Assembly (NCBI RefSeq): GCF_030028105.1
Contig: NC_092399.1
Location: 9,920,001-9,984,000, forward strand
Length of the DNA stretch: 64,000 bases
Direction of reading: 5' to 3'
Source: Mobula birostris
Lineage: Eukaryota
The notes beneath the pieces are model-generated. The model made no database searches and was not told where the DNA came from. It saw only the letters and a list, made by a program, of their open reading frames with translations. The translations under genes and the position numbers were made by a program. Of the stretch, positions 2,106 through 43,883 are shown in pieces. Numbering within the stretch: position 1 is the first letter of the stretch; every line of letters begins with the position of its first letter.

Positions 2106-2252
<147 letters not shown>

Positions 2253-2455
2253 CTACTACTCATGAGGGCATGGCGCATATTTACAACAAAAACATCTATT
2301 TTATTAAAATAATTGGTAGCAACTTCTTTAAAATGTCATCTTTAGAAAAGTTCCAAGTAGTACATAAAGATGGACATTACCTTAATGATTCTCTTAGTAA
2401 GATTGATATTACTTAATTGATTCTCTATCAGCAAAGTTGTAAGTAATGAATGTTA

Positions 2456-2773
<318 letters not shown>

Positions 2774-3977
2774 CTATTTACTGTTGTAAATGAAACAAAA
2801 AAAAATCTGAAACAACTGCAGAAAATTCCAGAAACACATAGCAGGGAGCATCGGTGGGGAGAAAAAACACGGCTTGCTGAATGATTCTAACATGTTGTAT
2901 TTTTATTTCCTTTGGGCAGATAAGAAAACAGTTCAACATCCACTTTGTGTGAACAAAGCAGATAACTAAAGTTTCTGCAGTCCCAGGAACTGTGCTGTTT
3001 GAATAGAAACTACAACAAAAGAAACAGCGAAGAGAAACGGTTTGAGAAATAATTCATAAACTACATGGAGTATTGTGTTCGCTTCATTATAAGGAGGAAG
3101 CGGAAGATTTAGAGCAGGTGCAGAGAAAAGTCACCAGTATGTTATACTGTTCTACATTCAATGTACATAATGTTCTGAAGCGCTCACTGAGACTTCAGAA
3201 AGGTTTAGAGTCCGAGGCAGTTTAGAGGAAAGACTTGAAATTGATCAAGTTACACAAGAAACAAAGACTTGTGGTTTTAGACCAGGAGTTCCCAACCTTC
3301 TTTACGTAATTAACTGAGGGGTCTGTGTTGGGAAACCCTGTTTTAGAAGGAAGAGGTGGGCTCACGCTGAATTCAAACACAAGACATCTCCAACGAATTA
3401 CAAATTTAGAGTTATAAAGCTGCTTCATTTAGTTGGATCAGGAGATGAACCTGGTTATAACAATAAGTAAAATATTTCAGCATCATTATGACAGTCAAAG
3501 TAAACCATGTTCTTTTTACTTTCCATTAAAAAAGTTCACAATCTCAGAAAATGACATCAGAAAATTTCTGAAAACTGGAAAAATAAGGAAAGATTGAATA
3601 GGTTGAGACTTAATTCCTTGGAATGTAGAAGATTGAGAGGAGATTTGATAGAGGTATACAAAATTATAAGGGGTATCAACAGGATAAATGCAAGCAGACT
3701 TTTTCCACTGAGGTTGGGTGGGACTCCAACTAGAGGCCATGGGTTAAGGGTGAAAGATGAAAAGTTTAAGGGGAACACAAGGTGAAACTTCTTCACTCAG
3801 AGTCAGTGAGCGTGTGGAACAAGCTGCCAGCACAATGTGAGTTCGATTTCAATGTTTCAGAGGAGTTTGGATAGATACATGGAAGGTAGGAGTTTGGAAG
3901 GTTATGGTCCAAGTGCAGTGCAGGTCAATGGGAGTAGGCAGTTTAAATCAGGGGTCCCCAACCTTTTTTTGCACCGT

Positions 3978-4347
3978 GGACTCTCCGATGGTGGTGTCTG
4001 AAAAGAGGATGCAGTTCAAGTTGCATGCCATCTTGGACAATGTCTCCCATCCACTACATAATGTACTGGGTGGGCACAGGAGTACATTCAGCCAGAGACT
4101 CATTCCTCCAAGATGCAGCACAGAGCGTCATAGGAAGTCATTCCTGCCTGTGGCCATCAAACTTTACAGTTCCCCCCTTGGAGGGTCAGACACCCTGAGC
4201 CAATAGGCTGGTCCTGGACTTATTTCCTGGCATAATTTACATATTACTATTTAACTATTTATGGTTTTATTACTATTTAATTATTTATGGTGCAACTGTA
4301 ACGAAAACCAATTTCCCCCGGGATCAATAAAGCATGACTATGACTAT
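3978..4347 (+). mobile_element. Rex-type LINE 3' end nested in the hAT element
   Basis: Near-identical to 50810-51170; AATAAA followed by an (ATGACT)n tail. Confidence 0.85.
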
Positions 4348-4562
4348 GGACCAGTTTAATATTGACAATACTCTTGCGGACCGGCCTGGGGCGGGGGGTG
4401 TCTGTTAATCACGACCAGAATATAGGTGATAAGTCAACTGTAAGTCACTTATAAGTGGCTAATACATTCAATTTCGTTTCTAAAAAGGGTTTATCTAATG
4501 AATTTAATATTAAACACAGCGCATATTTTCCTCGCATGAATATAGTGATAAGTCAATTATAA

Positions 4563-4784
4563 CAGTGGTTCCCAACCTCCGGGCTACGAACCGATACATT
4601 GCCATGAAGAATGATGCAGCGGTACAGCGGTGGCTGGAACGCACCCAGCACATCATTAAGAAAAAAACCGAAATAAACGAGATAATTAATTAGATGCCAC
4701 CTGGCACGTAAATGTCGGCCCAGATCAGAGGCACATTCTTCGCGGCAATGTTTCGGTCCGCGGCCCGAAGGTTAGGGACCACTG
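4563..4784. mobile_element. hAT MITE nested in the hAT element
   Basis: TIRs CAGTGGTTCCCAACC / GGTTAGGGACCACTG; TSD AATTATAA / AACTATAA. Confidence 0.85.
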
Positions 4785-5642
4785 AACTATAAGTCACTTA
4801 TAAGTCAATAGCATCATAACATTTTAAGTAATGTTTGGATATTAAAAACATAGCGCATATTTTTCTTGTATGAACATATAAAATCATTGCAACACATCAA
4901 TATCGCTGAATCAGTGAGAGCCCTGAGCTTGTTTCCCTGCAACAAGACGGACCCATCAAATGGTGATGGGAGACAGCGATACTCGAAGGGGGTTCCTTAT
5001 GTCCAGTCTATTCCGCAATTTAGTTTTTGTTGCATTCATTGCAGAAAACTCTGCTTCATAGCGATATGATGTTGGAAATGGAAGCAACGTTTTCAGTGCT
5101 TTCGTGGCTGTCTCAGGATACTCAGCCTGGCCTTTGATCCAGAATGCCGGCAGAGATATTATGTCAAACATACTTTTCAGCCCACCATCATTTGCAAGCT
5201 CGAGGAGTTGATCTTTTTCCCGCGCTGACAAAGATGATTCACCGGGGACATTCACAGGTGGGTCACGGAACCATTCCTTTGCACGTCTTGGGTCACTGAT
5301 GACCTCGCCTGCGTTCAAGTTCAACAGCAGGCATGACAGGGAATGAGGAAAGGTGCAGCTGATTCATATCGCCAAATCATATTGCTTCCTCGCGGCCCGG
5401 TAGCACATGCTTTGCGACCCGGTGGTTGGGGACCACTGGTTTAAATGGCTTGTCATGGAGCAGATGGGCCAGAGGGCTTGTTTCTATGCTGTACTTTTCT
5501 CAGGCTCCATGGTCAATGAGGTTTCAAACAATCTGACTTAGGGCAGGAGTGCAGCCCTAACTACAGCAATATTGGAGGCAGTGACATATTCAAAGTCCAG
5601 GAAACAAACACAAATCTCATTGCTAAAATTCATCTCTACCTA

Positions 5643-5756
<114 letters not shown>

Positions 5757-6724
5757 CTACAAAGGCACCAAAATTGTGTTAGTCAATCCAGAATTAGTTT
5801 TAACTTATTCACAGTAATGTCTGACAGTTCAAGGATACAGAATATTTTCCTTCAAACCAATAAAAGGCACTAAAGATAATTCACCCAAAGTCAGTGAGAG
5901 CAAGTGGCACCAAATGAGGTGCCTGCCGACCCCGTCTCTCAGCCACGACAGCAAGCGCTGAAAGGCAAGGCAGTAAGAACACCCATCCGTTTCAGTCTGT
6001 GAGGCTGGGATAATCAGCCTTGGTCCCTGATCACATCATCCAGCTAATTATGTACAGGCTGAGATTAGGTTTGACTGTTAATATCCCAAATTCAAACCAT
6101 TCAAACTGTGTTATCATCTTGAATGAAGGAGCAGAAAAGACAGCAAAGTCCATTTTGAGCTGAGTGGGGAGGATGGCGGGGTGGGTGGGTGGAAAGAGAT
6201 GGGATGCCTGTACATTTTCCTCAGGGTAGAAGGTATCATGGAGTCTATAGTAACTCTCAGAACAATCCCAGTCCACTATTTCCCAGCAACCATTTTTTCT
6301 CATTGACACCTTCTATCTACATTAGGGGCAGTTTATAGTCGCTAACAGCCAGCATACTTCTTAAGGTGTGGAAAGATACCAGAGCACGCAGAAGAACTTA
6401 TGGAGTCACAAGAAGAATATATAAGCTCTACATGGAAAGCAACAGAAGTCAGGATTGACCTTGGGTTACAAGAGTTACAAGATAAATCAGAATCAGGTTT
6501 ATTACCACCAGCATGCGCATGAAATTTGTTAACTTGCAGAAACTTGTGACTGACAAATGCAGCATCGGTGACATCAAAGTGCTTGTTGAAGAGTGAAGAT
6601 GGGAAAAAATATACATTTACTTACATGCTGTAAGGGATTCAACGTTAACAGAAATACAGCAGGCATTGATTCAAACAAACACCAGACTTCAATTCTCAAT
6701 GTAAATTACAAGGAGTAATCAGTT

Positions 6725-7090
6725 TGATGGGTGATGGGGTGGAGATACGTCTCTACCAAAGGAGGTGTAAGGTGCTCCTTCCCTCTGCTAGCCTGCAGGT
6801 CACCTTTGGCAAGGTGTAACACCTACTTAGCCCCCAAAGTCACGTGAAGCCATGGGAGACGGCGGTGGATGGTCATATGAGCAACTAGTGCATATCACAA
6901 GCCCAGTTTATGTGACACCAGGCAGACAATCTCCGAAGATTATTGATAATGGCTAAGGCCACCCACACGTCTTGTAAAGACATTGCCCAGGTGGCAACAG
7001 CAATCCACCTCTGTAGAAGAATTTGCCAAAAACAATCATGGTCATGGAAAGACCATGATCGTCCCAGTGATATGACATGGCACATAACGA
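6725..7090 (+). repeat. Unclassified interspersed repeat (possibly an RTE-related SINE); other copies at about 22930-23300(-), 29320-29660(-) and 30078-30270(+)
   Basis: Shared blocks such as CCAGGCAGACAATCTC and CATGGTCATGGAAAGACCATGAT occur in four places. Confidence 0.7.
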
Positions 7091-7358
7091 ACAAACAAAT
7101 CAGTCTGAAATTAAAAGGGTACTTTAGTAAGCAAACTATGCTATTACACTGAATAGGCGACTTGCCCACAAGAAATATGACTTGAAAAGTGATACAACTG
7201 TGAGATGTTCTTGTTGTATCAGCCAAGACAAGGAGCATCTTAATTAGACTACATAAGTCAGGCAACACTGACCAAGTTATTTTGTACCACTGTGACCGAG
7301 ATCAAGGAAGCTTCCAGACCAGATCAACTTTGTCACACCAAACAGGTCACAGGCGTCA

Positions 7359-7499
<141 letters not shown>

Positions 7500-7639
7500 T
7501 CAAAAGTGCAATACTTAGACTTTAACTTAAATGCAAAGTTTAAGCAAGGATTTAATAACTTTGGAGGTAATTCAGAATAAATTCACAAGGCTACATCCAA
7601 ATACTTTAGTTTTAGAAGAATGAGGAGTGATTGCCACTG

Positions 7640-7925
7640 TTGGCGAGGTGGCTAGCGTGGCGCTATTACAGTTTGGTGGTATTCTCAAGTTCAATTCCAG
7701 CACAGTTCTGCCAGAAGTCTCTGACCATCCCCCCCGCCTTAGAATGTGTGGGGTTTTCCCCAAGTGCTCTGGTTTCCTCCCCACAGTCTAAAGACACACT
7801 GGGTAGGTCAATTGGTGGTTATAAATTGTCTCGTGAATAGGTTAGGGTTAACCGAATTTGCTGGGGATTGCTGGGGTGGGGCATCTCAAAAGGGCTGGAA
7901 GGACCTACTCCACAGTGTATCACCA
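7640..7925 (+). mobile_element. tRNA-derived SINE (HE1/V-SINE-like); further copies at about 18440-18715, 53260-53535, 61315-61535 and 6320-6480(-)
   Basis: A/B-box-like head plus the GTGCTCTGGTTTCCTCCCACAGTC body. Confidence 0.7.
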
Positions 7926-9029
7926 GTTCATTGGTGAGACAGGAGAGCTTGATCCCTCAGTTGTTGTGCAGACAAGCCCCCCGTGCCTCGTGGTTGCTGG
8001 TGGAGGTGAGGCCAAGCCTGCTGTGTGCCGCTGGACCCCGTACTGGGTTGGGGGCTTGCCCCTCCTGTTGGTACTGCCCTCTAGTGTTCGCTCCTGAGAA
8101 GACAAGCTTCAGTCTGCAGGCCATGATGCTCAGGGAATTGGGATATGTTATTACTGTTTGATTTTTTTTTTGTAACTGTGTTTTTCTGCTATCATAATTA
8201 TTTGTGCCATATGTGCTGTATGTGACTGTTGGTACTGTGCTTTACACATTGGCACCAGAAGAGTGCTGTTGTTTGGCTGAATTCCTGTGTATGGTTGAAT
8301 GACAATTAAACTTAAACCTGTTGGTAGGTATCAGATAGGAAAATAGAGGGTGAGATTAATCAGTCATGATCTTATTCCTCGTCATATTTTTACCCATTTA
8401 TTTATCTCATCTTTTTACATACTCTGGATTCTTTCCACATGACTTTCTACCACTTTTGGTGCTCAGCTACAACTGCAATCTTATTTTGTGTTCTTAAGAG
8501 CTGGAATTTAAAATAAAAACAAAAAAATGGAAATATCCAGCATATCAGGCAATAGCCAAGGAGGGAGAAAGTTAATATTTACAGTCTGCAACAGGGAAAG
8601 TTGAGAGCGAAGCAGCTTTAAGCTACAATGAAGGCAGGCAAGAAAGATTCAAAGGTTTATTTTAATATCAGAGAATGTATGCTGTATACAATTTAAGTGC
8701 ATTAGTGTTTACAATGATTAAACAAAGTGTTGCTCCACAGTTTGAGGGTAGAATCCTAATTATGTTATATTTTTAAAGAACACATACAGTACTCAACCTA
8801 AGTCAATACCTTTTCCACCTTAAAATACTCACAATTCTCAGTTAACCAAATAATCCACAGAACACTCAGAATGCTCATTTATTTAGTGATGAGCATTCCC
8901 TTTACCCTTTTGTGCATCGCATGAAAGATCCTGAATAAATTAATCACAGGCTGTTCTTACCACAAAAAGCCATTCAGTTTGTTGACATCCTTACCAGCTC
9001 TATTTGTAAAGAATGAATGAGAACAGAAA

Positions 9030-9366
9030 AGCCGTTTCCACTGATAGGTGAGACTAGAACTAGTGGGCATAGCCCCAAGATTTGGGGAGTAGATTTAAGA
9101 CCGAGATGAGGAGGAACTGCTTTTCCCAGGGAGTGGTGAACCTGTGGAAATCTCTGCCCAGTGATGCACTGGAGGCTACCCCAGAAAATATATTTAAGAT
9201 AAGGTTGGATGGATTTTTTGCATAGTAGGGGCATTAAGGGTTATGGGGAAAAAGGTAGGTAGGTGGAGATGATTCCTGGCAGGATGAGCCATGATCTTAT
9301 TGAATGGCAGAACAGACTTGATGGGTCAGATGGCCTACTCCTGCTCCTATTCCTTATGTTCTTATG
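9030..9366 (+). mobile_element. CR1 LINE 3' end
   Basis: CR1-type 3' coding remnant and (TCTTATG)n-like tail. Confidence 0.7.
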
Positions 9367-9499
9367 ATAATTCTCAAGCAGCTCGACACCATCTAGGACA
9401 AACCTACCCACTTGACTGCAACTTTACCCACTAGTTTAAATATTCATTTTCTCCACTAATGTACACAGGCACAACAGCATGTAGTAACAGTGCAATCAT

Positions 9500-10260
9500 T
9501 CGAGTTGAATATATTTTCCCAAGGGATGGTCTGTTAGTGGGTCTTCGGGTGGCTGAGGAGGCCAATGCAGGATCTACATGTTCTGGTGCAGGGTGGGCAG
9601 GAATAAGTGGGGGCTGCGGTTCATGGTGGGGTCTTTTGGTCGTTCAGTCTCTCCTTTCGCAGCTGCCGCTTGTCCTCTGCAGCACAATGGAGGCCGTTCT
9701 CACATAGTACAGTTCCCTCTTGAACAGAATTCCTCCAGGTGTATCTACTGGGTGCAATGTCTTCCCTGTTTTTAGATGTGATATTGAATTTCTTCAGGCT
9801 GATTTTGATGTTACCTTTGAAGTATTTCCTTTGCCCACCGGGGGCTTGCTGAGCTTCCTTCAAGTGGGAGTAAGGGATCCGTTTGGGGAGGAGCGAGTTA
9901 GACATCTGGACAATGTTACCTATCCGTCGGAGTTGGTGTAGCCTTATCACGGTGGAGATGCTGTTCATGTTGGCCTCCTCCAGTACGCTGGTGTTAGTCC
10001 TTCCAGCTGATCCACAAAATCTTTCATCAGGATCTTTGGTGGATTTGTTCCAGAGATTTCAGGTGTCTCCTGAAGGTGATTCAGCTCCATACAGTAATGT
10101 AGGAAGGACAACTGCTCGACAGAGTTTGGATCTGTGGGTTGTGCTCTTCAAAGACTCTTTCTCAAATCTTGCATAGGCTTCACTAGTACCACTCAAGCGA
10201 CAGCCTGCAGTTTCACACCCAGGATACATGTTAGCACCTCTCAAACCTTTGACCTCCTTG
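9500..10260 (-). mobile_element. RTE-clade LINE RT C-terminal fragment
   Basis: AVVLPTLLYGAE, LPKRI.YS.LK...GGQRKYFK and terminal motifs typical of RTE. Confidence 0.75.
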
Positions 10261-13041
10261 GAAACTCCCGAAAGGCAGATTCCCTTGTAATTCACACTCA
10301 ATAATGATTTAGAAATATATTACACCACTGCATTTAAAGACAAATAGGGCCAGACTCTAAATGCTGGGTTTGCCAGCCACATTCTGATCCTGAAAAACAA
10401 AATCCTTTTTAGAAACTCCACTTCTCATCCTCCCTCTATAGTCCAGCAAATTCTTTCTGCTTCCGTTATAATACCTCAATTGAATTTGCATTCCCCACTT
10501 TAACCATGTGAATTTTTTTTTGCCAATTGTTTTCATTCTCTGTCCATTTGTTCTTGAGCCCTAGGCTGAACAGAATAATTATCTCTGCCTTCTCAATCTT
10601 TATCCTTTATGATTTTATTACTTTTATCCCAGCTTCTCCCATTTATGTACAAAGCCAAAGTTTGCCTTCCCTGGAGATGTGTTTCAAAATCATTACTGCA
10701 CTTTTCATAAGCCTTCCCACCTCTCTTCAAATGTACCAATCACAACCAGGGTTTAATATCACCGGCATATTAATATCACAGCAGTACTTTATAATTTCCT
10801 GTCAGTCACCTTATGTATAGATCTGTGCCTAGCACCACCTTATTGACATACATTGTACACAAGCTATCTTTATGTATTCACATGTGTTTTTTTATTATTA
10901 TTGTATTTTTTATCTTTTGTGTTTGTTTGGTGCTGTATCGGATCTGGAGTGACAATTGTTTCATTCTCCTTTACACGTGTACAGGAAATGACATCAAACA
11001 ATCTTGAATCTTGAAGAACTTCACAAAATGTCTTCAAATTTGTTGTTTTGCAGCAGCAGTACATTGCAACACATAATAATAAGTGTAATTTAGAGTATAT
11101 ATATATTTTAAAAAGTTAAAGGTTGTTCAGGCTTATTCCCTGCCTCATTTCCTTTCTTACTTCTCTGAACACATTGGAATTGACCTGCTTCTCATTTGCA
11201 TCAATCTTTCAGTTGCTCTTCCCCCACTCCCACTATTTTGATCTTTATTATTTTTGCAACTATGGAGTTCCCTTTGTTTCTCCCTCATGGCAAAGTACCT
11301 AGATGTGCAGATATAACACCTCCCAATGTAAATGGTGTGCTGTTGTTCAATTAGGGCTTTAATTCCAGTTTATTCACGTTAGCTCTGTTCTTACTAGCTC
11401 TTCTCCAATTGAATACGTTTATTTTAGTGTTACTCAAGCCCCTGATCACTGGTCATAACAAGTACTGCACGGTCCATAACTGATAAAAGTGAAGCAATTT
11501 GCCTTTAAATAGACTCATATCCAACTCAGGCAAGGTCAAGTTCCTCTCGGGCTGGAAACATGCTGATCGAGGCTTTTAACACACTGAGGAACTCCTCTCA
11601 CTCTTCAACCCTGAAATTACTGCAATCTCAGTTGAAGTTAACAAGTGAAGAGCCCTTGGTATTACAGGAAAGATACTAGCACAGATACTAGTACTAGCAG
11701 CCACACCACTTTGACAGGCAGTTAAACCAGGCGAGGGTCACTGGCGGCCTCATAGCCCAGTGAGATAGGGACATTCCTGTCCTAGCATGTGAAGTCAGCT
11801 CTGCAGGACCGGGCAGATGAGATCTACAGTGAGATCCAATAGCTAGGAAGGCAGCACTGCAACACTCCATGGAGAGGGAAGGGCACGACAAAGCATACAA
11901 GATATCATGGTCATGCACTGAAACCGAAGATGACCCCAGTTTGTATCACTGGTCTCGGACTTCTGAGGTGAAGAGTGTGGAACTGCCCTCCTTTTTCCAT
12001 TTTAAAAACTCTACCGCACTGGTTTCCCGCCATCGTTGGACTCGATGAACAGCCACCATCCATCCAAGCTTATGCATATCTTTGCAATGTGCCACAAGTT
12101 TTCTCCTCAATATCCTATTCAGGTCTGCAAGTGAGAAAATAAACCATCTATTCCAACCATTTGCCTTTTGCCCATTAACTAATTGTAAATTTATTACCCC
12201 AGTATTGTAGTTTTATTTAATACCCTCATATGATACCTTTTGAAAGTCAAAATACACAAGATCCCTGAGAATTGTCCCAATGCCAATCTAATGCACTCCC
12301 TCTTCTACTTTCTCTGAGCACATAGTTATTTAGAATATCTTATTTTGATTCTTATTGGCATGTGACATAGGGAGCAATCCTAATACTACCATTCTGAGTT
12401 CCATCTCCTTAAAATCTGTCTGGTGAACCTCCTTTTGTTTTCTATTTACATTGTTGGTTCCAATATGGGGGTACACTCAACCTTCCTGAATTTCCTACAG
12501 TAACTTCAGTAAAATCCTTAGTTCTAAAATCACAGAAGCATCATACTATACCACAACCACATCTGCAAACACCAGGTTGCTTTCCCACCCAAGAACATTC
12601 TTACTCACTTGACCTTTCACCTCCTTCCCTATATCATTAAGCCAACCATGGTCGAGGTCCTGTCTGCATTCCTTCATCAGAACTTTAATGAATACCAGCT
12701 ACAAAGATTTAAGAACATAAAATGTGTATGCATACGCAAAACGATGACGTTCAATTTGCACTCCTGGGTATCTGCCAGTCCATTTTCCACGGCTACAAGC
12801 CCATTCTGCCACGAAGCGGGATAATTTCCCCCACCGCGAGCAGAGTGCCCGTCATCATTCCAAACTGGTGTGCGGTTACCACAGACCTCTGCCAATCCAA
12901 CACCGGCCGGGGCAATAAAACCCCAATTTTAGAACCGCATCCATGGCCGTAATGTGTGCGCCACGTTCATAGTAGGAAAAGAACAAAACCATCAACGCTA
13001 ACTTTCGGCTTACCAAAACAAAAAAACCCCTCACAATCCGT

Positions 13042-13310
13042 ACTTACTTCACAAGCCACAAATCCGGCCACAAACAATAGACAGCTGCCCCGTCCGAGCA
13101 AGAGAGCGATGCGCATGCCCGCTAGGAGCTGACCGTCACGTGATCGGTGGCGTCATCCCCATGACGCAATCCTCCCGTCTCCAGCGCATAACAAGCGGAG
13201 GGAGGGAGGGAGTAGTGCGCATGCGCACCAGTGAAAGTTTAGGGACAGCTCCACCTTTGAGTGACTTTTCCTTTAGATATATATAAAAAAAGGAGGGGCG
13301 GGGAACCACT
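13042..13310 (-). promoter_or_regulatory. TMEM50A: TMEM50A CpG-rich promoter and probable non-coding exon 1
   Basis: GTAAGT donor on minus at 13047-13042; perfect NRF1 palindrome TGCGCATGCGCA 13216-13227; second GCGCATGC near 13111; GTCACGTGAT E-box/CLEAR-like motif 13135-13144; inverted TGACG half-sites 13150-13167; GC box near 13295. Confidence 0.75.
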
Positions 13311-14584
13311 GTCTTGCTAAACAAGTTGGTCTGCCAGCGCATCGAGATTTCTGTGGAAGAATGCTGCCGCCTGATACATTTCAGAATGGGGAGGGACATA
13401 GAGGCAATGAAACATGGGGTTGTCTCCACAAGAGCTCGGTGGGGAAGGTCCAGACTGTGGCGTTCTTCTCCTACTGGAGAGCGAGGGGCCAGGTTGGGGG
13501 AGAAAGCCCCTCAATTATATCTGGAACAGTATACCACCCCAGAGTGGTAGCAGTGCCATGGATGTGCATTGACTATGAATGCAAATAATGAAAACGGTTT
13601 ATTCTTGTAAACATATTCCATTAATATATACAGTACTTATAAAAGTTTATATCGTTAAATGTGGGGAGCAACAGTCCGAGTGCAAGGTTTCGAGAGCAAT
13701 GCACACAAGTTCTGGAGGAACTCAGCAGGTCGGGCAGCACCTATGGAGAGGAATAAAGAGCCGACCATGGGGTTCACAGGACGCCTCTGTTAACGGTAGG
13801 GGTCCACGGCATAAAAATGGTTGGGAACCCCTATAGCTGACGGGCGTTTCAGACCGCCGCCCTTCATCAGGACAGTTTCGATCCGTGACGTTTGCAATTC
13901 CTTCCTTCCCTCCCACGCAGTTGCTGCTGAACCCGCTGAGCCCCCCCAGTAAAACAGATACAAGAGACTGCTGATACAAACACACACAACATCAGTGGAG
14001 GGAAATGGATGGTTGCTATTTCAACGGCTTGAACACGGTTTCAGGTTTCAGTTCTCTTGTATCTCGCCAGCGGATTACTCCCTACTGCTGCAACAAAGAA
14101 ATGTGCAGAATCAAATTTAATATCATCAGCATATGTCGTGACATTTGCTAACTTTACGGCAGCAGTACAATGCAATACATGATAAATATGGAGAAAAAAG
14201 ACTGAGTTACATTAAGTATACATATGTCTATTAAGTAGTAAGTTAAAGTAAGTAATGCAAAATAATAGAAATAATAAAAGTAGTGAGATAATGTTCATGG
14301 GTTCAATATCCGTTTAGGAATCGGATGGCAGAGGGGGAGAAGCTGTTTCTGAATCGCTGAGTGTGTACATTCAGGCTTCTGTACCTCCTTCCTGACGGTA
14401 ACAGCGTGAAGAGAGCATGTCCTGGGTGGTGAGGGTCGTTAATAATGGCCCCCACCTTCCTAAGGCACCGCTCCTTGAAGACGTCTTGGATACTACGGAG
14501 GCGAGTACCCACGACAGAGCCGACTAATTTTACAAGTTTCTGCAACTTTTTGGTGACTTTTGAAACAGTAATGTCATCATCCGG

Positions 14585-15475
14585 TATAGATAGAAAGATA
14601 CTTTATTAATCCCAAAGGAAATTACAGTATCACAGTGGCTTTACAGGTGCACAGATATACAAATATTAGAAGTAAGAAAGTATTAAAAAAAGTTGCCTCA
14701 AACAGTCGAACGGGGGGGGGGGGGTCATCACTTGCCCTGGCCGAGGGTTGGAATGGCCTCATACAGCGCTCTTTGGAGCAGCGCAGTTGTCTTTAGTCTA
14801 TTACAAAAAGCACTCCTCTGTTCAGCCAAGGTGGCATGCAGAGGGTGAGAATCATTGTCCAGAATTGTCAGGATTTTCCGTAGGGTCCTTTGTTCTGCCA
14901 CAGCCTCCAGTGTGTCCAGTTTGACTCCTATAACAGAACCAACCTTTCTAATTAGTTTGTTGGCATCACCCTTGCTGATGCCATTGCCCCAGCACATCGC
15001 TGCATAGAAGATTGTACTGGCGACAACAGACGAGTAGGACACGTGAAGGAGAGGCCTGCATACTTCAAAGGACCTCAGTCTCCTCAGGAAGTAGAGGTGA
15101 CTCTGGCCCTTCTTGTACACAGACTCTGTGTTGGTGGTCCACTCAGGTGCACCCCCAGGTCCTCACCACCGACAGTAACAGGGGCAGTGCTTCGTCTTCC
15201 TAAAGTCCATCATCATCTCCGTTGTCTCACTGATGTTCAGCTGCAGATGATTCAGCTTGCACCATTTGACAAAGTCCTGCACTAGGGCCTCATCCTCCCG
15301 CCCTCCCTGTATACATCCAACTATTGCTGAGTCATCAGAGAATTTCTGCAGATGACATGACTCAGTATGGGATCTAAAGTCCAAGGTATACAGGGCAAAC
15401 AGGAAGGGAGCCAATACAGTCCCCTGTGGGGTCCCAGTGCTGCTTATAACCATGTCTGACACACGGCTCTGAAGC
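14585..15475 (-). mobile_element. Rex-type LINE RT fragment
   Basis: TGTPQGTVLAPFLFALYT, LQKFSDDSAIVG, LYFLRRLRSF. Confidence 0.88.
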
Positions 15476-16140
15476 CTTGAGTATGGGGGGGGGGGGTTGC
15501 AGCTACTGCAAGGATCGAAATAAGCTGCAGAGAACTGTAAACGTAGTCATCTCCATTCGTAGTACATTTTCAAGGAGCAATGCCTCAAAAGGGCGGCGTC
15601 CATCATTAAGGACCCTGATTGCCACCATCGGGAAGGAAGTACAGAACTAAAGGCACAGAGTCAACGATTCGGGAACAGCTTCTTCCCCTTTTGCCATCAA
15701 ATTTCTGAATGGACATTGAACCCATGAACACTACCTCACTACTTTTTTTTATTTCTAGTTTTGCACTACTCTTTAAACTAATATATATTGTATAATATGC
15801 AAAACACGAATTCTAGTAAATATATATGTACACTTCCTGTAATTCTTGTTTTTTTTATTATTAGAAAACATTGTGCTGCTATTGTAAAGACAATAAATTG
15901 CACGGCATACGCCGGTGAAATGAAACCTGATTCTTAATTGCTGACACAACAATTCAGGCAAAGAAAACAGTTCACATATTGCATTAAAGACACTCAGTTA
16001 AAACCTGTAGCGTTAACTTTATATATCCCTGCACGGATCACTGCGTCTGTATTTCACCTTTCCAGGATTTTCCCCATCGATTTAATTCTAAATTGTGGCA
16101 AAACCACATGGCTTGAGGCTGGGACAAGCTACTGTACATG

Positions 16141-16410
16141 CCTGGCGGCGGGTAGTCACGTGTGCTGCGAGGCGGCCTGGCGGCGGGTAGTCACGTGTGC
16201 TGCGAGGCGGCCTGGCGGCGGGTAGTCACGTGTGCTGCGAGGCGGCCTGGCGGCGGGTGGTCACGTGTGCTGCGAGGCGGTCTGGCGGCGGGTGGTCACG
16301 TGTGTTGCGAGGCGGTCTGGCGGCGGGTGGTCACGTGTGCTGCGAGGCGGTCTGGCGGCTGGTAGTCACGTGTGCTGCGAGGCGGTCTGACGGCGGGTAG
16401 TCACGTGTGC
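16141..16410. repeat. 35-bp GC-rich minisatellite, about 7.7 copies, each with a GTCACGTG E-box
   Basis: Unit CCTGGCGGCGGGTAGTCACGTGTGCTGCGAGGCGG starts at 16141, 16176, 16211, 16246, 16281, 16316, 16351 and 16386 (partial). Confidence 0.98.
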
Positions 16411-16471
16411 CGTGACGCAGCCGCGCTCTCGGACTCGGAGACGGACGCCAGGCCCGGGCGGAGGAGACAAG

Positions 16472-16957
16472 ATGCCGAAGTATTACTGCGATTACTGTGA
16501 CACCTACCTCACTCACGACTCCCCGTCCGTCCGCAAGACGCACTGTGAGGGGCGCAAGCACAAGGAGAACGTCAAAGACTACTATCAGAAATGGATGGAG
16601 GAGCAGGCCCAGAGCCTCATCGACAAGACCACGGCCGCCTTCCGCCAGGGCAAAATCCCGCCCACGGCCCCCTTCCCGGCGCCGGCCGGGCCGCCCCCGG
16701 CTGGGGCCGCCATCCCACCTCCGCCTGGGAACATCGGAGTGCCGCCGCCGCGGCCCGCCATCCTGCCCGGACCCCCAATGGGAGGGCCGCCCATGATGCC
16801 GATGATGGGCCCGGCGCCTCCTGGTATGATGCTGGTGGGCCCGGGGATGAGACCGCCCATCAGCGGCCCGGTGCCCATGATGCCCGGCCCGATGATGGGG
16901 CCTCACCGGCCGATGGTGGTGCCTTCACGACCTGGATTAGTACGCTCGACCAGATAA
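16472..16957 (+). CDS. SNRPC: U1 snRNP protein C (U1C), intronless intact copy, probable retrogene, 161 aa
   Basis: [57 protein letters not shown] matrin-type zinc finger plus Pro/Met/Gly tail. The real ATG is at 16472 (the track starts at an upstream GTG). No introns, CpG-rich. Confidence 0.95.
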
Positions 16958-17579
16958 GCAACGCCTGGACCAGGGACATTAGCCAGGGCGAAGTTTCACG
17001 CACCCTGAACCGAGACAATCGGACGGCAGCGCCGCCGTTTCAAAATCAGTTCTTTGACTCTTTTGTTACAGGGTCGAAGCAGGTCCTATGTATGTCGCCA
17101 TCTTCATTAAACAACCGAACTGTGAGCGGATTTCCAACTTGCAAGTTTGAATTAACGTGTACTGTCCAGTTCAGGGATTTACTGACGGACTGGAGGAAAG
17201 GGCTGGGTTGTGTGTTACTTTTTTAAGAAGCTGTACAATTGCTATTTCCCCCAGTGTATTTTTGAGATTCTAATTGTCCATTTATTCGGTGCCACATTAT
17301 TTTAGCCTGAAAATTTTAAAAAAATGTATGGTTGAAAATCCTTGTTCTGTTCAGGGTTTAAAACTTATACAGAGTTGAAGACCCCCAAATCCACAGGAAG
17401 TGATTTGACCCAACTATATAAGGCAATTAGTCAAAATATTGACGTTTTAAATTTGCCTTTTAAGCAGATGAATCAACTGACTGGAAAGCGTTGCTTGAAG
17501 TACACTGTTGTTGAAAGACACGAATTGGTTATACTTTGTTTTGAAATCTTGTAACATTGGATATAATTTTTTAGTTTGT

Positions 17580-17585
17580 AATAAA
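17580..17585 (+). terminator. Probable polyadenylation signal of the SNRPC copy
   Basis: AATAAA about 620 nt after the stop, preceded by TGTA and followed by GT/T-rich sequence. Confidence 0.55.
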
Positions 17586-33950: not shown

Positions 33951-34106
33951 CTTGACGTTGTATTTCTTCCTGGCGAAGCCCACTTTGGCTCCCAGGTAAG
34001 CCAGCATGACCCAGCTGTAAATGAACACCAGGATCACGTAGCCGAACTGAGGGGGTATGAGTTGAGTGGGGTGGGCTTTCGCACTCTGCGGCGGCACGTA
34101 CTGCAT
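33951..34106 (-). CDS. MGST3: MGST3-like (mgst3b-type) exon 1 (MQYVPPQSAKAHPTQLIPPQFGYVILVFIYSWVMLAYLGAKVGFARKKYNVK)
   Basis: ATG 34106-34104 in a CpG island, GTAAGG donor at 33950; FGYV...ARKKY motif of MGST3. Confidence 0.88.
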
Positions 34107-39124: not shown

Positions 39125-41903
39125 GTAAGATCTGAAGTGACATTTTTTTTTAAATGTAGAGGTTTCGATTTAAATTACTTGCTTTTTTTTGGAAGTCTTA
39201 ATTTATAAGGTCATTTTATGCGCTGTTGTTGAGTATGACGCAGTCTTTTATTGAAGGTGGACGGGGGCTTAGTCACGCAGCCAAACTCAGTTTTTGAGGT
39301 AGTTTTGGAAACAAAAAATACTGGCAAGGACAATAAAGATTTAGTCAGTGTTTCTGTCGGTGTCATTTTATCTGAGGCTAAAATGTCTTCGTCACTCTCA
39401 CAACCGCCTGCCTGACCTGTTGAGCGTTTCTAACAGTTTCTGGTCATAGTTAAATATAACGTACCCGCGGTTTCTGGAATTTGTTTAAAAAAACTTTTGT
39501 ACCTGAGGTATTTTGTTGTTTAGGTCGCAGAGTCAGCAGCTAAATTCGAGGGTCAACGTCTATAGGTCGGGTTCATAAAATACAGATGAGATTGGGGTCA
39601 AAGTCATTGCTTGGGCGTGCTTGGAGAGAGTGGACAGACCCAGGGTATTTGACATCGAAATGTTTAATTTCGTGAAACAATCACTATAAATCGGTAATCT
39701 ATCAGTACCGAATTGTTCCTTTAACTTTTTTTTAAACCGTTGACGACAATTTGCATGACTATAGGAAGTAGAGGCTGAACCTCTAGGATCTGATGACCTT
39801 TGTCATTAAGATTATGTTAATCCTTTTATTACTTAATCGGACTGCCCCACCCTCCAACCGTTTTAGTTTCGTGAACCCTCAAGCATTGAAATGTTCTGGA
39901 AAAAGTCCTAATTCGCCATTGGATGGCAGTGGTGAGTTAATAAGATGCTCACGTAGGGACTCTTATGCTGATCCTTGGGCAAGCATTCCCTAATTGCTTC
40001 TCAAGATAGCAACTTGGTCACTTTTTGTATTGGCAGTTTCAATTTAATAAGGAAAAATGTTTTCTTAATGGGTCCAATCTAAAAATGAATGTAGCACTTC
40101 TTAAAAAGTGAACTATGATAGAGTCCAGGTAAGTTGATGGGGCCAATAGGATGGAGGTACTTGAGTATTTTCCCCTAGTGTGAAGAGAAAGTAGCACAGG
40201 TATTGCTATCCAGCATGCAAATCAAAGGACAGGATTCACTGAATTGAACTATTGCCTGGATTTTGTGGTAATGGTCAATATACAATGAAGCTTTTAGCTG
40301 GAAACATCTAGAATGCAACTGACCAATTAAATACTGTCACAAAAATCTAATAAGATGGAGTATAATGAACTGTATAGCTGCAGTTACTGGTTAGCAATCT
40401 ATGGCTGTATAAAACAAAAGTCTTGTAAACTTCTAGGAGAAATATCCTACTTAAAAATTAATTCTAAAAAAATTAAAATATTTTTAATCCTGTCTAATTT
40501 GCCTTCAACTTTAATCGCATGCATATGTTACCAGTCTACCACTTTCTAAAAGTTTAAAATCTGTATAGCGTTTACTTGTACTGTTAGAATATTGTTGTTT
40601 GGCTTCCCATCCAATTTACTAATATTGTAAGTCAGACTTCCATTTAAACAAGGTCTTGACCACCTTGACAAAAGGTGGAGGTGGTGGGAAGAGTCCATTT
40701 CGGTTCTGGATCTTGAGGTAGTGTTTTGTTTAAGAAAATTGAATTTCAGTGATTTAGATTGCAGTATCAAATTTGAGCTGCAATAAGGTCAATGACTTGT
40801 TTTAAACTGGGAATTTAAAAAAAAAGTGTCTTTGACCTGGAGGCAGTGTTGGCAGTGAGTGGACTTTGGTATTGATGAAAGTAGAGTCTATGAAAGTCTG
40901 TGATTTGGGTATTGAATGTATATGGAAATAGTTATTGGAAAGGGTTTTGTGGCATACAGAGATGGATAATCAGGTTCATTTTTCAATAAGTAGGATATAA
41001 ACTTTTGCGAGTTGAGTCCTCGATGGAACTTTAATTACTGTAAATTGAACTACAGATAGTATCTGCACTTTAGCAGTGTGATAATAAAAATTGCTCACTT
41101 GAAATTGTCAATTTTAACTTGTAACTTTTATTTCTTTGTGTGTGTGTATATATATCTGATGTATCTACACATGGAGAGAATTGTGTTGCAGATCAGCAGC
41201 CTCCCTGTAATTGCATAAACATAAGTGTCCCATGTTTCAATTTAATTTTTCTATGTGTTAGCAGGCCAGATTCAACTGATTTATCCTGGGAACTGATGAA
41301 AAAGAAATCCAGCTTTGGTAAGTTTGGTATTGATGTATTTTTTCCCTTCAATGCAAAGAAGGTTAAGGATTCAATTAAAATTCAGTCTCATCTATTTGAT
41401 ACAATAAAAAAAATCTGTACAGTACTTGGAAATTGTCCTAACTAAGGGGTTTAATTGAAATTATTTGGCCAAGAGAACCAGAAGAAAAATGGAAGATTTT
41501 GTATGTTCAATTGATCATAACATTGCTTGAAAAGAAAATCTAATATATAGCAGTTACAGTACTTTTGAAGCAGAATAAGATCTACTTGCAGTGAACTAGG
41601 AATTACTTGGAAAAGGAGATCTGTGCAGGAGAATGGAGCACTTGAACTAATATAAAGATTTTAGAGCCAGCATAGCCAAATGAGTAAGGGACTTCCTGTG
41701 TGTTAAAGTTCGAAGAAATAAAGTTGTATTTCATTTTTAGTTACTGAATTTGACTATAAATGCAGTACTAGAAAATAGCAGCTGAAATTTGTACCATTTG
41801 AATTAATTCAGTTTGTGTAAGTACTTGAAATATGGCGTTGGTATCTGGTGACTCTGCGCATGCTCTCCCGAGCAAACTGCCCTCTATGCTATCCTATACT
41901 GAC

Positions 41904-41905
41904 TT

Positions 41906-41941
<36 letters not shown>

Positions 41942-41965
41942 CTCTTTCCCCCCCCCCCCCACCCC
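41904..41965. repeat. (CT)n plus poly-C tract forming the polypyrimidine tract of the RSRP1 exon 2 acceptor
   Basis: Seen directly. Confidence 0.9.
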
Positions 41966-41972
41966 AGGTAAA

Positions 41973-42792
41973 ATGCATTTGCATAATCTGGAACGTGAAC
42001 AAATGTCTGAAATGAAGTGGGGAAAAGATAGGTGCAGTATACAGAAGAAGAAGGCTGAGAAAATTGCAATTGGTGTGGATGAATTGTGTCTTGCTTCAGA
42101 TAAGCCTCAAAAGTGTAAGAGAGTGTCACGGTCCAGAACTCCAGGCTATCAGAAATGCAAAATCTTGAAGTCAGGTTCAGTATCATCTTTGGGAAGTTGT
42201 TGTTCATCTTCTGCTACCTCTCGGTCAGATTCTGTTTCATCCTCTGCCAGCTCACGATCTGGTTCGATGTCATCATCGAGTTGCTCTCGATCGAGTTCGG
42301 TATCGTCATCCTGTAGCTCTCGTTCCAGTTCAGTCTCATCTTCTGGTAGCTCTCAGTCAGATTCAATGTCCTCTTCTGGCAGTTCCAGATCAAGTTCGGT
42401 GTCCTCGTCAGGCAGTTCCTATTTGGGTTCTGTGTCCCCATTAAAAAGGTACCGATCAAGTTCAAAATACACTAATTCGGCTTCAAGGTCAAGATGTGTA
42501 TCACGTGAGAAGAGATACAAAAGATTAAGAGGAACCCATTCAAGATCCCGGTCTCGAAGCTGCTCAAGGTCTTGTTACCGAAGATCAAGATATCATATGT
42601 CGTATCGGTCAGCCCTCGGGTACCGATCAAGATCTAGGTCTAGCTTGAGGTACAGAAGATCCCGCTCAGGATCAAGGTCAAGATATTCATCCAGGCGTCC
42701 AAGGAACTACCATAGTTTTATGTACAGAACCCATTCTCCACACAGAAGTCGAAGCAGATCAAGGGGAAGATCTATTCACTTAACACAAAAAG
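41973..42792 (+). CDS. RSRP1: RSRP1 large Ser/Arg-rich coding exon (start ATG uncertain: 41973, 42003 or 42012)
   Basis: Acceptor after a long pyrimidine tract (AG 41966-41967), RS-rich ORF, AAAG|GTAGAA donor, phase 1 into the next exon. Confidence 0.85.
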
Positions 42793-43883
42793 GTAGAATA
42801 TATTGAAATTATAAGGAATATGAATAATCATGAATGGATGTGGGAGTAACCATTTGATCTCTTGATTTCTAGTCTTTATTCAACTGCATAAGTACTTTCC
42901 CTGAAATTTCATGATTCCTATGTCCAAAAATCCTTTGATCTGATGTTAATGAAGTTTAATGACCCTTAGTTTTCAATAGTGAAGTCCAAAAATTTACCAG
43001 AGGAAAATACTTAGTCCCAAATGGCGAAGCGATTATTTTGAGATTTCTCAATCAGAGCATCTTCCAATATATACCCTGTCTAAGTTCTTACGATTTTTGA
43101 CTTTTCAGTAAGGTCTATTCATTCCTCTAAACTAAAAGCCTGGCTGTCTTGACACTCCTGCCATGCCAGGGATCAGTTCATTCCCTCTAACAAACATATG
43201 CAAGATGTGGTCTTGTTAAAGACAGATGTAATTGTAGTGAAACATCTTTACACTAGTCTATAAATAAGGCAAATGTTATCACGCTCCTTTCTGTTTACCT
43301 GCTGTAGCTACATGTTGACGTTCAGTGAGTTATTCAACGCATCCAGGTCGTTGAACATGAGCATTTCCCAACTTCTCATTCAAAGTATCCCATTTTTGTG
43401 TAAATCATTGAAGTGGCTCGCCTTGTATTTTCTAAACTAACTATTTGTCTATGTTGCTTTCTGTTTCAGCTCTTGTACAATCCTGCTAAAGCCTATATAC
43501 ATTTTCGTTACTTCACATTAGTTTTGTCTTTAGCAAGCTTGAAAACATTGCTTTTGATCTCTTCAGACTAACTTGTAGATAGGGAATAGATGTTGCCCCA
43601 GCACTAATCCCTAGTGGCCCACTAGTTTATCTTCCCTAAATGTTCTTGGTTAACTTGCTGTGTCCTCCAATTCCATGTGCTCTTTTCAGCAATTTTAATG
43701 GCCCCTTGTGAAAATAATTGGTATATCACATCCACAAGTTTTCCTCCTTGCAGCTTTTGCCATTTAGTTTTAGGTATTATCCTCAAAGCTCCCAATTGCC
43801 CATCAACATTTTGCATTTGGTCATGTGTTTTTCTAAGTTTGAAGGGTAGCAACCTAAAGTTTATTAATGCTGTGTTCTTTCAG

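What the first reader, a model, noticed from the sequence alone, without database searches (positions are those of the whole stretch)
16141..16410. E-box VNTR as a copy-number dial for expression
Seen: GTCACGTG at 16155, 16190, 16225, 16260, 16295, 16330, 16365 and 16400. All 8 are intact although other unit positions vary and CpG is normally hypermutable. Variation is polar: units 1-3 are identical, unit 4 is a hybrid, and 5-8 diverge, which suggests recent expansion at the distal end. Known: GTCACGTG is bound by USF1/2 and TFEB/MITF, and the CACGTG core by MYC:MAX and CLOCK:BMAL1. Inference: an amplified promoter element, probably polymorphic, that may also act on the divergent TMEM50A promoter 3 kb away.
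Basis: partly seen in the sequence, partly recalled or inferred. Interest (0 to 1): 0.7.

Follow-up and report, generated by a model that had tools for sequence, protein, structure and literature searches.

The report
E-box minisatellite in ray SNRPC promoter
Eight tandem copies of a 35-base piece, each carrying a classic gene-activator binding word, sit directly in front of a ray's only intact gene for the splicing protein U1-C; they likely act as a redundant, shifting cluster of activator sites of a kind already known from human genes, and nothing here shows that copy number sets expression.

Summary
The array is real: 8 x 35 bp (16140-16419), GTCACGTG in every unit, single-copy in this 4-Gb ray genome. 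It lies 72-317 bp upstream of the start codon of an intronless SNRPC (U1-C) gene, the only intact copy found. SNRPC neighbours MGST3b in sharks and skates too and is missing from the human-type locus, so it is likely an old orphan retrogene. A related species has the same array (about 6-7 units, a different homogenised variant); a low-depth contig of the window's species shows a second allele with altered units and a broken last E-box. The array therefore turns over, but length polymorphism is not shown. E-box conservation here is only suggestive (P 0.07-0.26 in most tests, 0.02 at best). At least 29 loci in the genome hold triple GTCACGTG runs, a density close to control 8-mers; similar arrays precede DOHH and NOPCHAP1. 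Best reading: a promoter minisatellite like the human TYMS/USF1 repeat, with redundant sites and a modest, saturating effect. A selected 'dial' is possible (about 0.2); action on TMEM50A, which has its own E-box promoter, is unsupported.

The parts
16140..16419 (+). Minisatellite, 8 x 35 bp, single-copy in the genome; GC 0.73, CpG o/e 1.17
16155..16407 (+). Eight GTCACGTG E-boxes at 35-bp spacing, 317 to 72 bp upstream of the SNRPC ATG
16385..16419 (+). Unit 8, likely the original promoter module: E-box plus TGACGCA (16413-16419, CRE/ATF-like half site, label recalled); units 1-7 carry a diverged tail without that motif (5 of 9 letters shared)
   Evidence: inference
16420..16422 (+). GCC, the same three letters that open unit 1 (16140-16142): likely microhomology at the founding duplication
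   Evidence: inference
16394..16471 (+). Likely transcription-start zone and 5' leader of SNRPC (RNA-type contigs begin at 16394 in organism C, 16404 in B, 16460-16490 in A; contigs cannot fix a start)
16472..16957 (+). Intronless SNRPC (U1-C) ORF, 161 aa, zf-U1; first 63 aa identical to six chondrichthyan U1-C proteins; only intact copy found in the genome
16958..17585 (+). Likely 3' UTR, AATAAA at 17580; RNA-type contigs colinear with the DNA to 17482-17527 and beyond
13700..15870 (.). Block of high-copy interspersed repeats between the two promoters
   Evidence: (summed contig depth 10^4-10^5 against about 10)
12900..13350 (-). Likely TMEM50A promoter and non-coding first exon: own GTCACGTG (13135), TGACGCA (13162), GCGCATGCGC (13217), CpG o/e 0.94, donor-like site near 13050; coding exons at 7490 and 5646-5756
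   Evidence: promoter status inferred

Best explanation
The array is a single-locus promoter minisatellite of eight 35-bp units in front of the ray's only intact, intronless SNRPC gene; it likely arose by tandem duplication of one E-box-bearing promoter module, likely turns over by unequal exchange and gene conversion, and likely works as a redundant cluster of USF/MYC-MAX/TFE-type sites with a modest, saturating effect on transcription. Shown: position, unit structure, single copy, presence in a second species with other unit variants. Inferred: origin at a GCC microhomology, unit 8 as the original, an unmethylated state, factor binding, size of the effect. Repeat number is probably drifting within a tolerated range rather than being set by selection.
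For: Position next to the RNA 5' ends and the ATG. Unit 8's tail is homologous to the tail of units 1-7 (5 of 9 letters; the left flank matches 1 of 9) and is followed by GCC. Organism B: left contig ends at 16198, right contig starts at 16347, and a 62-bp contig of one unit has depth 48.8 against 13.1-14.6 on the flanks, which gives about 6.5 E-boxes with a variant absent from the window: turnover since a split of about 2% flank divergence (6 substitutions in 260 bp). A contig of the window's species has four other letters in units 7-8 and just behind; its start at 16341 and the break at 16435 in a second run fit two alleles. No E-box change in B's contigs; all 8 intact in the assembly. Triple GTCACGTG runs occur at 29 or more loci, close to control 8-mers where the lists can be compared. 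Human precedent: TYMS repeats with USF1 sites, effect in vivo inconclusive (PMC7712088); 6-7% of tested UTR/regulatory VNTRs track expression, twice that within 100 bp of a start (PMC8024321). U1-C protein is coupled to U1-70K by feedback (PMC3798272), which would blunt an mRNA dial.
Against: No binding, methylation or expression data. E-box sparing may be real: with B's variants 12 of 35 columns vary and none in the 8-mer (P=0.021; 0.086 by the window-share test; 0.11 and 0.20 with the broken allele); three of the four tail differences are CpG/TpG-type; at DOHH and NOPCHAP1 1 of 12 E-box columns vary against 31 of 67 others (Fisher 0.012, window-share test 0.11). That would favour selection on many copies. 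The second allele rests on one contig of depth 4.6; B's copy number on contig depth.
Confidence: 0.5

Rival explanations
1. Selected copy-number dial: each unit adds a bound bHLH-ZIP dimer, SNRPC output scales with unit number, and selection keeps the E-boxes and a range of lengths; the same happens at other growth-gene promoters of this ray.
For: All E-boxes within about 320 bp of the ATG; intact in the assembly and in B while 12 of 35 columns vary. Like arrays end just before the ATG of DOHH and NOPCHAP1; 8 of 29 GTCACGTG loci have a CpG-island-like flank against 0 of 13 control arrays (Fisher 0.043; 0.077 without this locus). 65% of human eVNTRs correlate positively with length.
Against: Length polymorphism not shown; a second allele appears to lose the start-proximal E-box; tests that respect clustering of variable columns are not significant (0.09-0.30 per locus, 0.11-0.12 combined); loci were found by demanding intact E-boxes; E-boxes are common in CpG-island promoters anyway (one each at TMEM50A and BLTP3A among the 5 other promoters checked); U1-C/U1-70K feedback; hTERT VNTR reporters showed no relation to repeat number (PMC2915984).
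Confidence: 0.2
2. Inert passenger: only unit 8 (E-box plus TGACGCA) drives the gene; units 1-7 are a by-product of slippage in a GC-rich island and add nothing.
For: Arrays around an arbitrary CpG-bearing 8-mer are about as frequent (5 loci against 6 in C1-C5; 8 against 12 in C1-C12; both control lists cut short). Units 1-7 lack the TGACGCA motif. No significant E-box sparing in the window alone.
Against: Intact CACGTG sites in a CpG-rich patch within 300 bp of a start are normally bound (established knowledge, recalled); the second allele seems to lose the unit-8 E-box, which is easier to bear if upstream copies work (low depth).
Confidence: 0.2
3. Boundary element: the array extends the CpG island and recruits USF to keep silencing from the adjacent retroelement block off the only SNRPC gene, so it guards stability of expression rather than its level.
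For: The array is the outer edge of the island (GC 0.34 to its left) and faces about 2.2 kb of high-copy repeats. USF-dependent barrier activity at the chicken HS4 insulator is recalled, not read here.
Against: No methylation or chromatin data; skates and sharks keep the gene at this place and it is unknown whether they have an array.
Confidence: 0.1

Closest known systems
Human TYMS enhancer-region VNTR (TSER, 28-bp repeats with USF1 sites; PMC7712088, passages read)
   Same: Short GC-rich tandem repeat at a housekeeping gene's 5' end, one E-box-type site per unit, unit variants that keep or break the site
   Different: Here 8 units with canonical CACGTG, upstream of the apparent start; TSER sites are CACTTG and few; no functional or population data for the ray
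Human eVNTRs near transcription starts (PMC8024321, passages read)
   Same: Promoter-proximal VNTR with factor sites
   Different: eVNTR status needs genotype-expression association, not testable here
hTERT intronic VNTR2-1 with CACGTG in many repeats (PMC2915984, passages read)
   Same: Canonical E-box carried in a minisatellite unit
   Different: Intronic; reporter data in that paper concern the neighbouring VNTR2-2 and show no relation to repeat number
Orphan retrogenes with CpG-island promoters (PMC4772013, passages read)
   Same: Intronless copy, parent not found, broad housekeeping role, CpG-island promoter head-to-head with another gene
   Different: Described in mammals; this one appears shared by sharks and batoids; distance to TMEM50A (3 kb) exceeds their 2-kb head-to-head rule

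Membership tests
Promoter minisatellite (VNTR) | Head-to-tail units of 10-100 bp at a single locus | tested here: met
   35 bp x 8, one match in the genome
Promoter minisatellite (VNTR) | Lies in the proximal promoter or 5' leader of an expressed gene | tested here: met
   72-317 bp before the ATG; RNA-type contigs cover the ORF and begin at the array's end; RNA status of the runs is the tool's guess
Promoter minisatellite (VNTR) | Number of units varies among alleles of the species | tested here: inconclusive
   A second allele differs in unit make-up and B has about 6.5 units, but contigs cannot count units
Expression VNTR (TYMS type) | Factor binds the site in the repeat | not testable with these tools
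   Motif match only; factor names for GTCACGTG are recalled
Expression VNTR (TYMS type) | Expression follows the number of sites | not testable with these tools
   No genotype-expression or reporter data
Expression VNTR (TYMS type) | Sites spared relative to the rest of the unit | tested here: inconclusive
   P from 0.021 to 0.37 by column set, motif length and test
Orphan retrogene (SNRPC) | Intronless, intact, expressed | tested here: met
   Continuous ORF; RNA-type contigs without gaps; that other vertebrates have introns in SNRPC is recalled
Orphan retrogene (SNRPC) | Parent gene absent | tested here: met
   Only other hit is a decayed intronless copy on C11; no SNRPC exon in the 340 kb from ILRUN through BLTP3A to TAF11; assembly gaps elsewhere cannot be excluded
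Orphan retrogene (SNRPC) | Insertion scars (poly-A tract, target-site duplication) or intronless state in all lineages sharing the site | not tested
   Intronless over codons 1-76 in organism B's DNA contig; shark and skate gene structures not available

The most novel reading that the evidence does not exclude
Rays repeatedly multiply E-box modules at the promoters of growth and RNA-processing genes (SNRPC, DOHH, NOPCHAP1, probably an otubain gene), selection spares the E-boxes while the spacers churn, and unit number tunes these genes' response to MYC/USF/TFE factors; at SNRPC the dial sits on an ancient orphan retrogene that is the animal's sole source of U1-C.
Probability: 0.15. Interest if true: 0.65.

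Novelty: new member of a known kind. Interest (0 to 1): 0.36.

Why it matters
As a kind it is known: promoter repeats with E-box-type sites exist at human TYMS and hTERT. If the dial reading held, it would give a clean natural series (1-8 or more identical sites, fixed spacing) for testing how site number maps to output at an essential splicing gene, and a fast-mutating regulatory marker in a ray. The side results may matter more: an essential spliceosome gene that appears to have moved and lost its introns before sharks and rays split, and several more E-box arrays at growth-gene promoters in the same genome. No paper describing either turned up in searches (open-access library only).

Tried and rejected
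Assembly artefact: rejected, raw-data contigs break where the array predicts. Mobile-element origin: the 361-bp region has one match in the genome (the tool skips very common words). Common origin of the SNRPC and TMEM50A promoters: local alignment no better than shuffles. Intron-bearing SNRPC parent: none among 4 and 132 candidates scored (the four weaker hits are other zinc-finger genes or noise) nor in 340 kb of the human-type locus. One search was run out of frame and replaced. TMEM50A as synteny anchor: the search returned 3 proteins, none from a cartilaginous fish by name; MGST3b was used instead. ETS-motif control: no locus listed before C11, then one satellite filled the list (100 of 297 shown), so not usable beyond C1-C10. 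The pooled P=0.0008 was dropped: two of its four arrays have only 3-4 units, so intact E-boxes were forced by the search. The 'outer unit included' label is wrong (the 40-bp units were filtered out); one search replaces it. Gene naming at other loci: 150 of 180 candidate ORFs scanned; C13, C17, C6 and C34 loci stayed unnamed. Bacterial promoter scan is irrelevant to this genome. RNA contigs did not cover the TMEM50A first exon, which proves nothing. SNRPC not found in 3 supplementary files of PMC13320880 or the main text of bioRxiv 10.64898/2026.06.26.734816 (its supplements were not seen and may list this retrocopy).

Full report
Observation. The eight GTCACGTG sites are at the stated coordinates in a 35-bp array that has eight full units from 16140 to 16419. 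The region has one match in the 4.01-Gb own genome. A k=31 graph of the window predicts that the unique left flank ends at 16169; contigs of runs X1 and X2 end exactly there, so the array exists in raw data. The eight sites are one word copied, so the shuffle test says only that a repeat is present.

Context. The array ends 52 bp before the ATG of an intronless 161-aa ORF with a zf-U1 domain, 95% identical to bamboo-shark U1-C. MGST3b exon 1 in the window is 52 of 52 residues identical to a Mobula protein, so this is a devil or manta ray or a close relative. RNA-type contigs of three of three runs laid cover the ORF without gaps (RNA status is the tool's guess); in organisms B and C they begin at 16404 and 16394. 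The array is therefore the proximal promoter of SNRPC. The only other SNRPC-like hit is a decayed intronless copy on C11. ILRUN, BLTP3A and TAF11, which flank SNRPC in human (one table row of PMC5704537), lie in that order on C18, and 340 kb across them hold no SNRPC exon (BLTP3A located with a recalled N-terminal motif). In five of five sharks and skates for which both proteins were returned, SNRPC and MGST3b share a contig length, with accession numbers 1, 1, 2, 2 and 31 apart, an indirect sign of the same neighbourhood. SNRPC is thus likely an orphan retrogene older than the shark-batoid split; that other vertebrates have introns in SNRPC is recalled, and shark gene structures were not seen.

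Origin and turnover. Unit 8 carries GTCACGTG followed by TGACGCA; units 1-7 carry a diverged version of that tail (5 of 9 letters), the left flank does not match it (1 of 9), and GCC both opens unit 1 and follows unit 8. A single module duplicated at a 3-bp microhomology explains this (inference). Organism B, about 2% diverged in the flank, has the array too: its left contig stops at 16198, its right contig starts at 16347, and a 62-bp one-unit contig has 3.3-3.7 times the flank depth, about 6.5 E-boxes in all, with a variant not present in the window and no listed change in an E-box (differences near contig ends are not listed). B's homogenised block is internal, so 'distal expansion' describes this allele only. 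In run X2 of the window's species one contig (depth 4.6, under the tool's error warning) has T at 16375, A at 16407, T at 16430 and T at 16434; 16407 turns the last E-box into GTCACGTA. Run X1, same sample, breaks at 16435, where two such alleles would merge, which supports the 16434 site; the X2 contig starts at 16341 rather than the predicted 16330, right after the variable column 26, which points to further differences in unit make-up. Unit number of that allele cannot be read.

Are the E-boxes spared? Leaving out unit 8's tail, 5 of 35 columns vary and the chance that none hits the 8-mer is 0.25; no CpG transition occurs at any of the five CpGs of units 1-7. With the tail, 9 columns vary (P=0.066; 0.14 for CACGTG), three of the four tail differences being CpG/TpG-type; with B, 12 columns (0.021; 0.062); with the broken allele 0.11 and 0.26; a test that keeps the clustering of columns gives 0.09-0.26. 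The signal is suggestive, not established.

How common is this? At least 29 loci hold three GTCACGTG at 28-48 bp spacing (100 of 106 matches listed). Two control 8-mers give 5 loci against 6 in C1-C5 and 8 against 12 in C1-C12, both lists cut short. Eight of 29 E-box loci (three of them clusters without a TRF repeat) have a CpG-island-like flank, against 0 of 13 control loci (Fisher 0.043, 0.077 without this locus). True arrays end just before the ATG of DOHH and of a gene whose next exon matches NOPCHAP1; a three-unit one precedes a probable first exon with otubain exons 20-25 kb on. At DOHH and NOPCHAP1, 1 of 12 E-box columns varies against 31 of 67 others (Fisher 0.012; clustering-aware 0.11); nine non-promoter arrays of 5-20 units give 7 of 54 against 59 of 281 (0.12). 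All these loci were found by demanding intact E-boxes. An earlier AI note (e1-9809248, unchecked) reports another E-box cluster in this genome's fucosidase intron; it is a lead, not support.

Mechanism. Most likely (0.5) several of the sites are bound by bHLH-ZIP factors (names recalled) and act redundantly with a modest, saturating effect while the array drifts. A selected dial (0.2), an inert passenger (0.2) and a methylation boundary (0.1) are the rivals. Base rates: 163 of 10,264 genotyped human VNTRs were eVNTRs, 6.0-6.8% of tested regulatory and UTR ones, twice as many within 100 bp of a start (PMC8024321, passages). At TYMS the number of USF1 sites varies with repeats and a SNP, but a 29-patient study found no conclusive link to activity (PMC7712088, passages). 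U1-C and U1-70K are tied by feedback in human, mouse and zebrafish (PMC3798272, passages), which would damp an mRNA-level dial. TMEM50A has its own E-box, TGACGCA and GCGCATGCGC in a separate CpG-rich patch, behind about 2.2 kb of high-copy repeats; nothing here supports action of the array on it.

Verdict. Observation confirmed; interpretation partly supported. A new member of a known kind (promoter minisatellite with E-box sites, TYMS type); membership as an expression VNTR is untested. Searches (listings; open-access library) found no description of this array or of an intronless elasmobranch SNRPC; supplements of one bioRxiv retrocopy survey were not seen. Interest 0.36.

Noticed in passing
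window 16472-16957; G000 C18:52.17-52.51 Mb; L004: SNRPC looks like an orphan retrogene: intronless, sole intact copy, absent from the ILRUN-BLTP3A-TAF11 locus, next to MGST3b in five sharks and skates by accession and contig length; a decayed processed copy lies on C11.
   Followed up: partly
L086 (G000 C30:4.675 Mb): DOHH promoter: about ten 39-40-bp units with CACGTG ending some 20 bp before the ATG; the outermost unit has AACGTG.
   Followed up: partly
L084 (G000 C27:63.87 Mb): Twelve CACGTG in a 78-bp (2 x 39) higher-order array before the likely NOPCHAP1 start; every second unit holds an ATG in the same GATGGCGG context as the real start, so upstream ATGs would arise if transcription begins inside the array.
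   Followed up: partly
L078 (G000 C17:111.997 Mb): Fourteen CACGTG in about 600 bp with diverged spacers (no TRF repeat) before a CCAAT/ETS-like promoter of an unnamed gene: possibly an old array in which only the E-boxes survived.
   Followed up: partly
L075 (C13:29.76 Mb), L065 (C1:250.42 Mb): Smaller E-box arrays in CpG-rich 5' regions: 76-bp higher-order unit at an unnamed gene; 34-bp x 3 upstream of otubain exons.
   Followed up: partly
L068 (C4:103.37 Mb), L076 (C13:45.67 Mb): Two copies of one dispersed repeat, each with an internal 33-bp E-box array.
   Followed up: no
window 16440-16462: Organism B lacks 22 bp of the 5' leader; one RNA-type contig of the window's species (X7) has 23 unaligned letters before 16460, unexplained.
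   Followed up: no
window 33951-34106 (-), 41829-42806 (+), 2200-13100 (-): Gene order in the window: TMEM50A (-), SNRPC (+), MGST3b (-), an RS-rich exon that looks like RSRP1 (+; name recalled).
   Followed up: partly
G000 C11:81.29-81.36 Mb and beyond: A large 31-bp satellite with CCGGAAGT (ETS-like) in many units.
   Followed up: no
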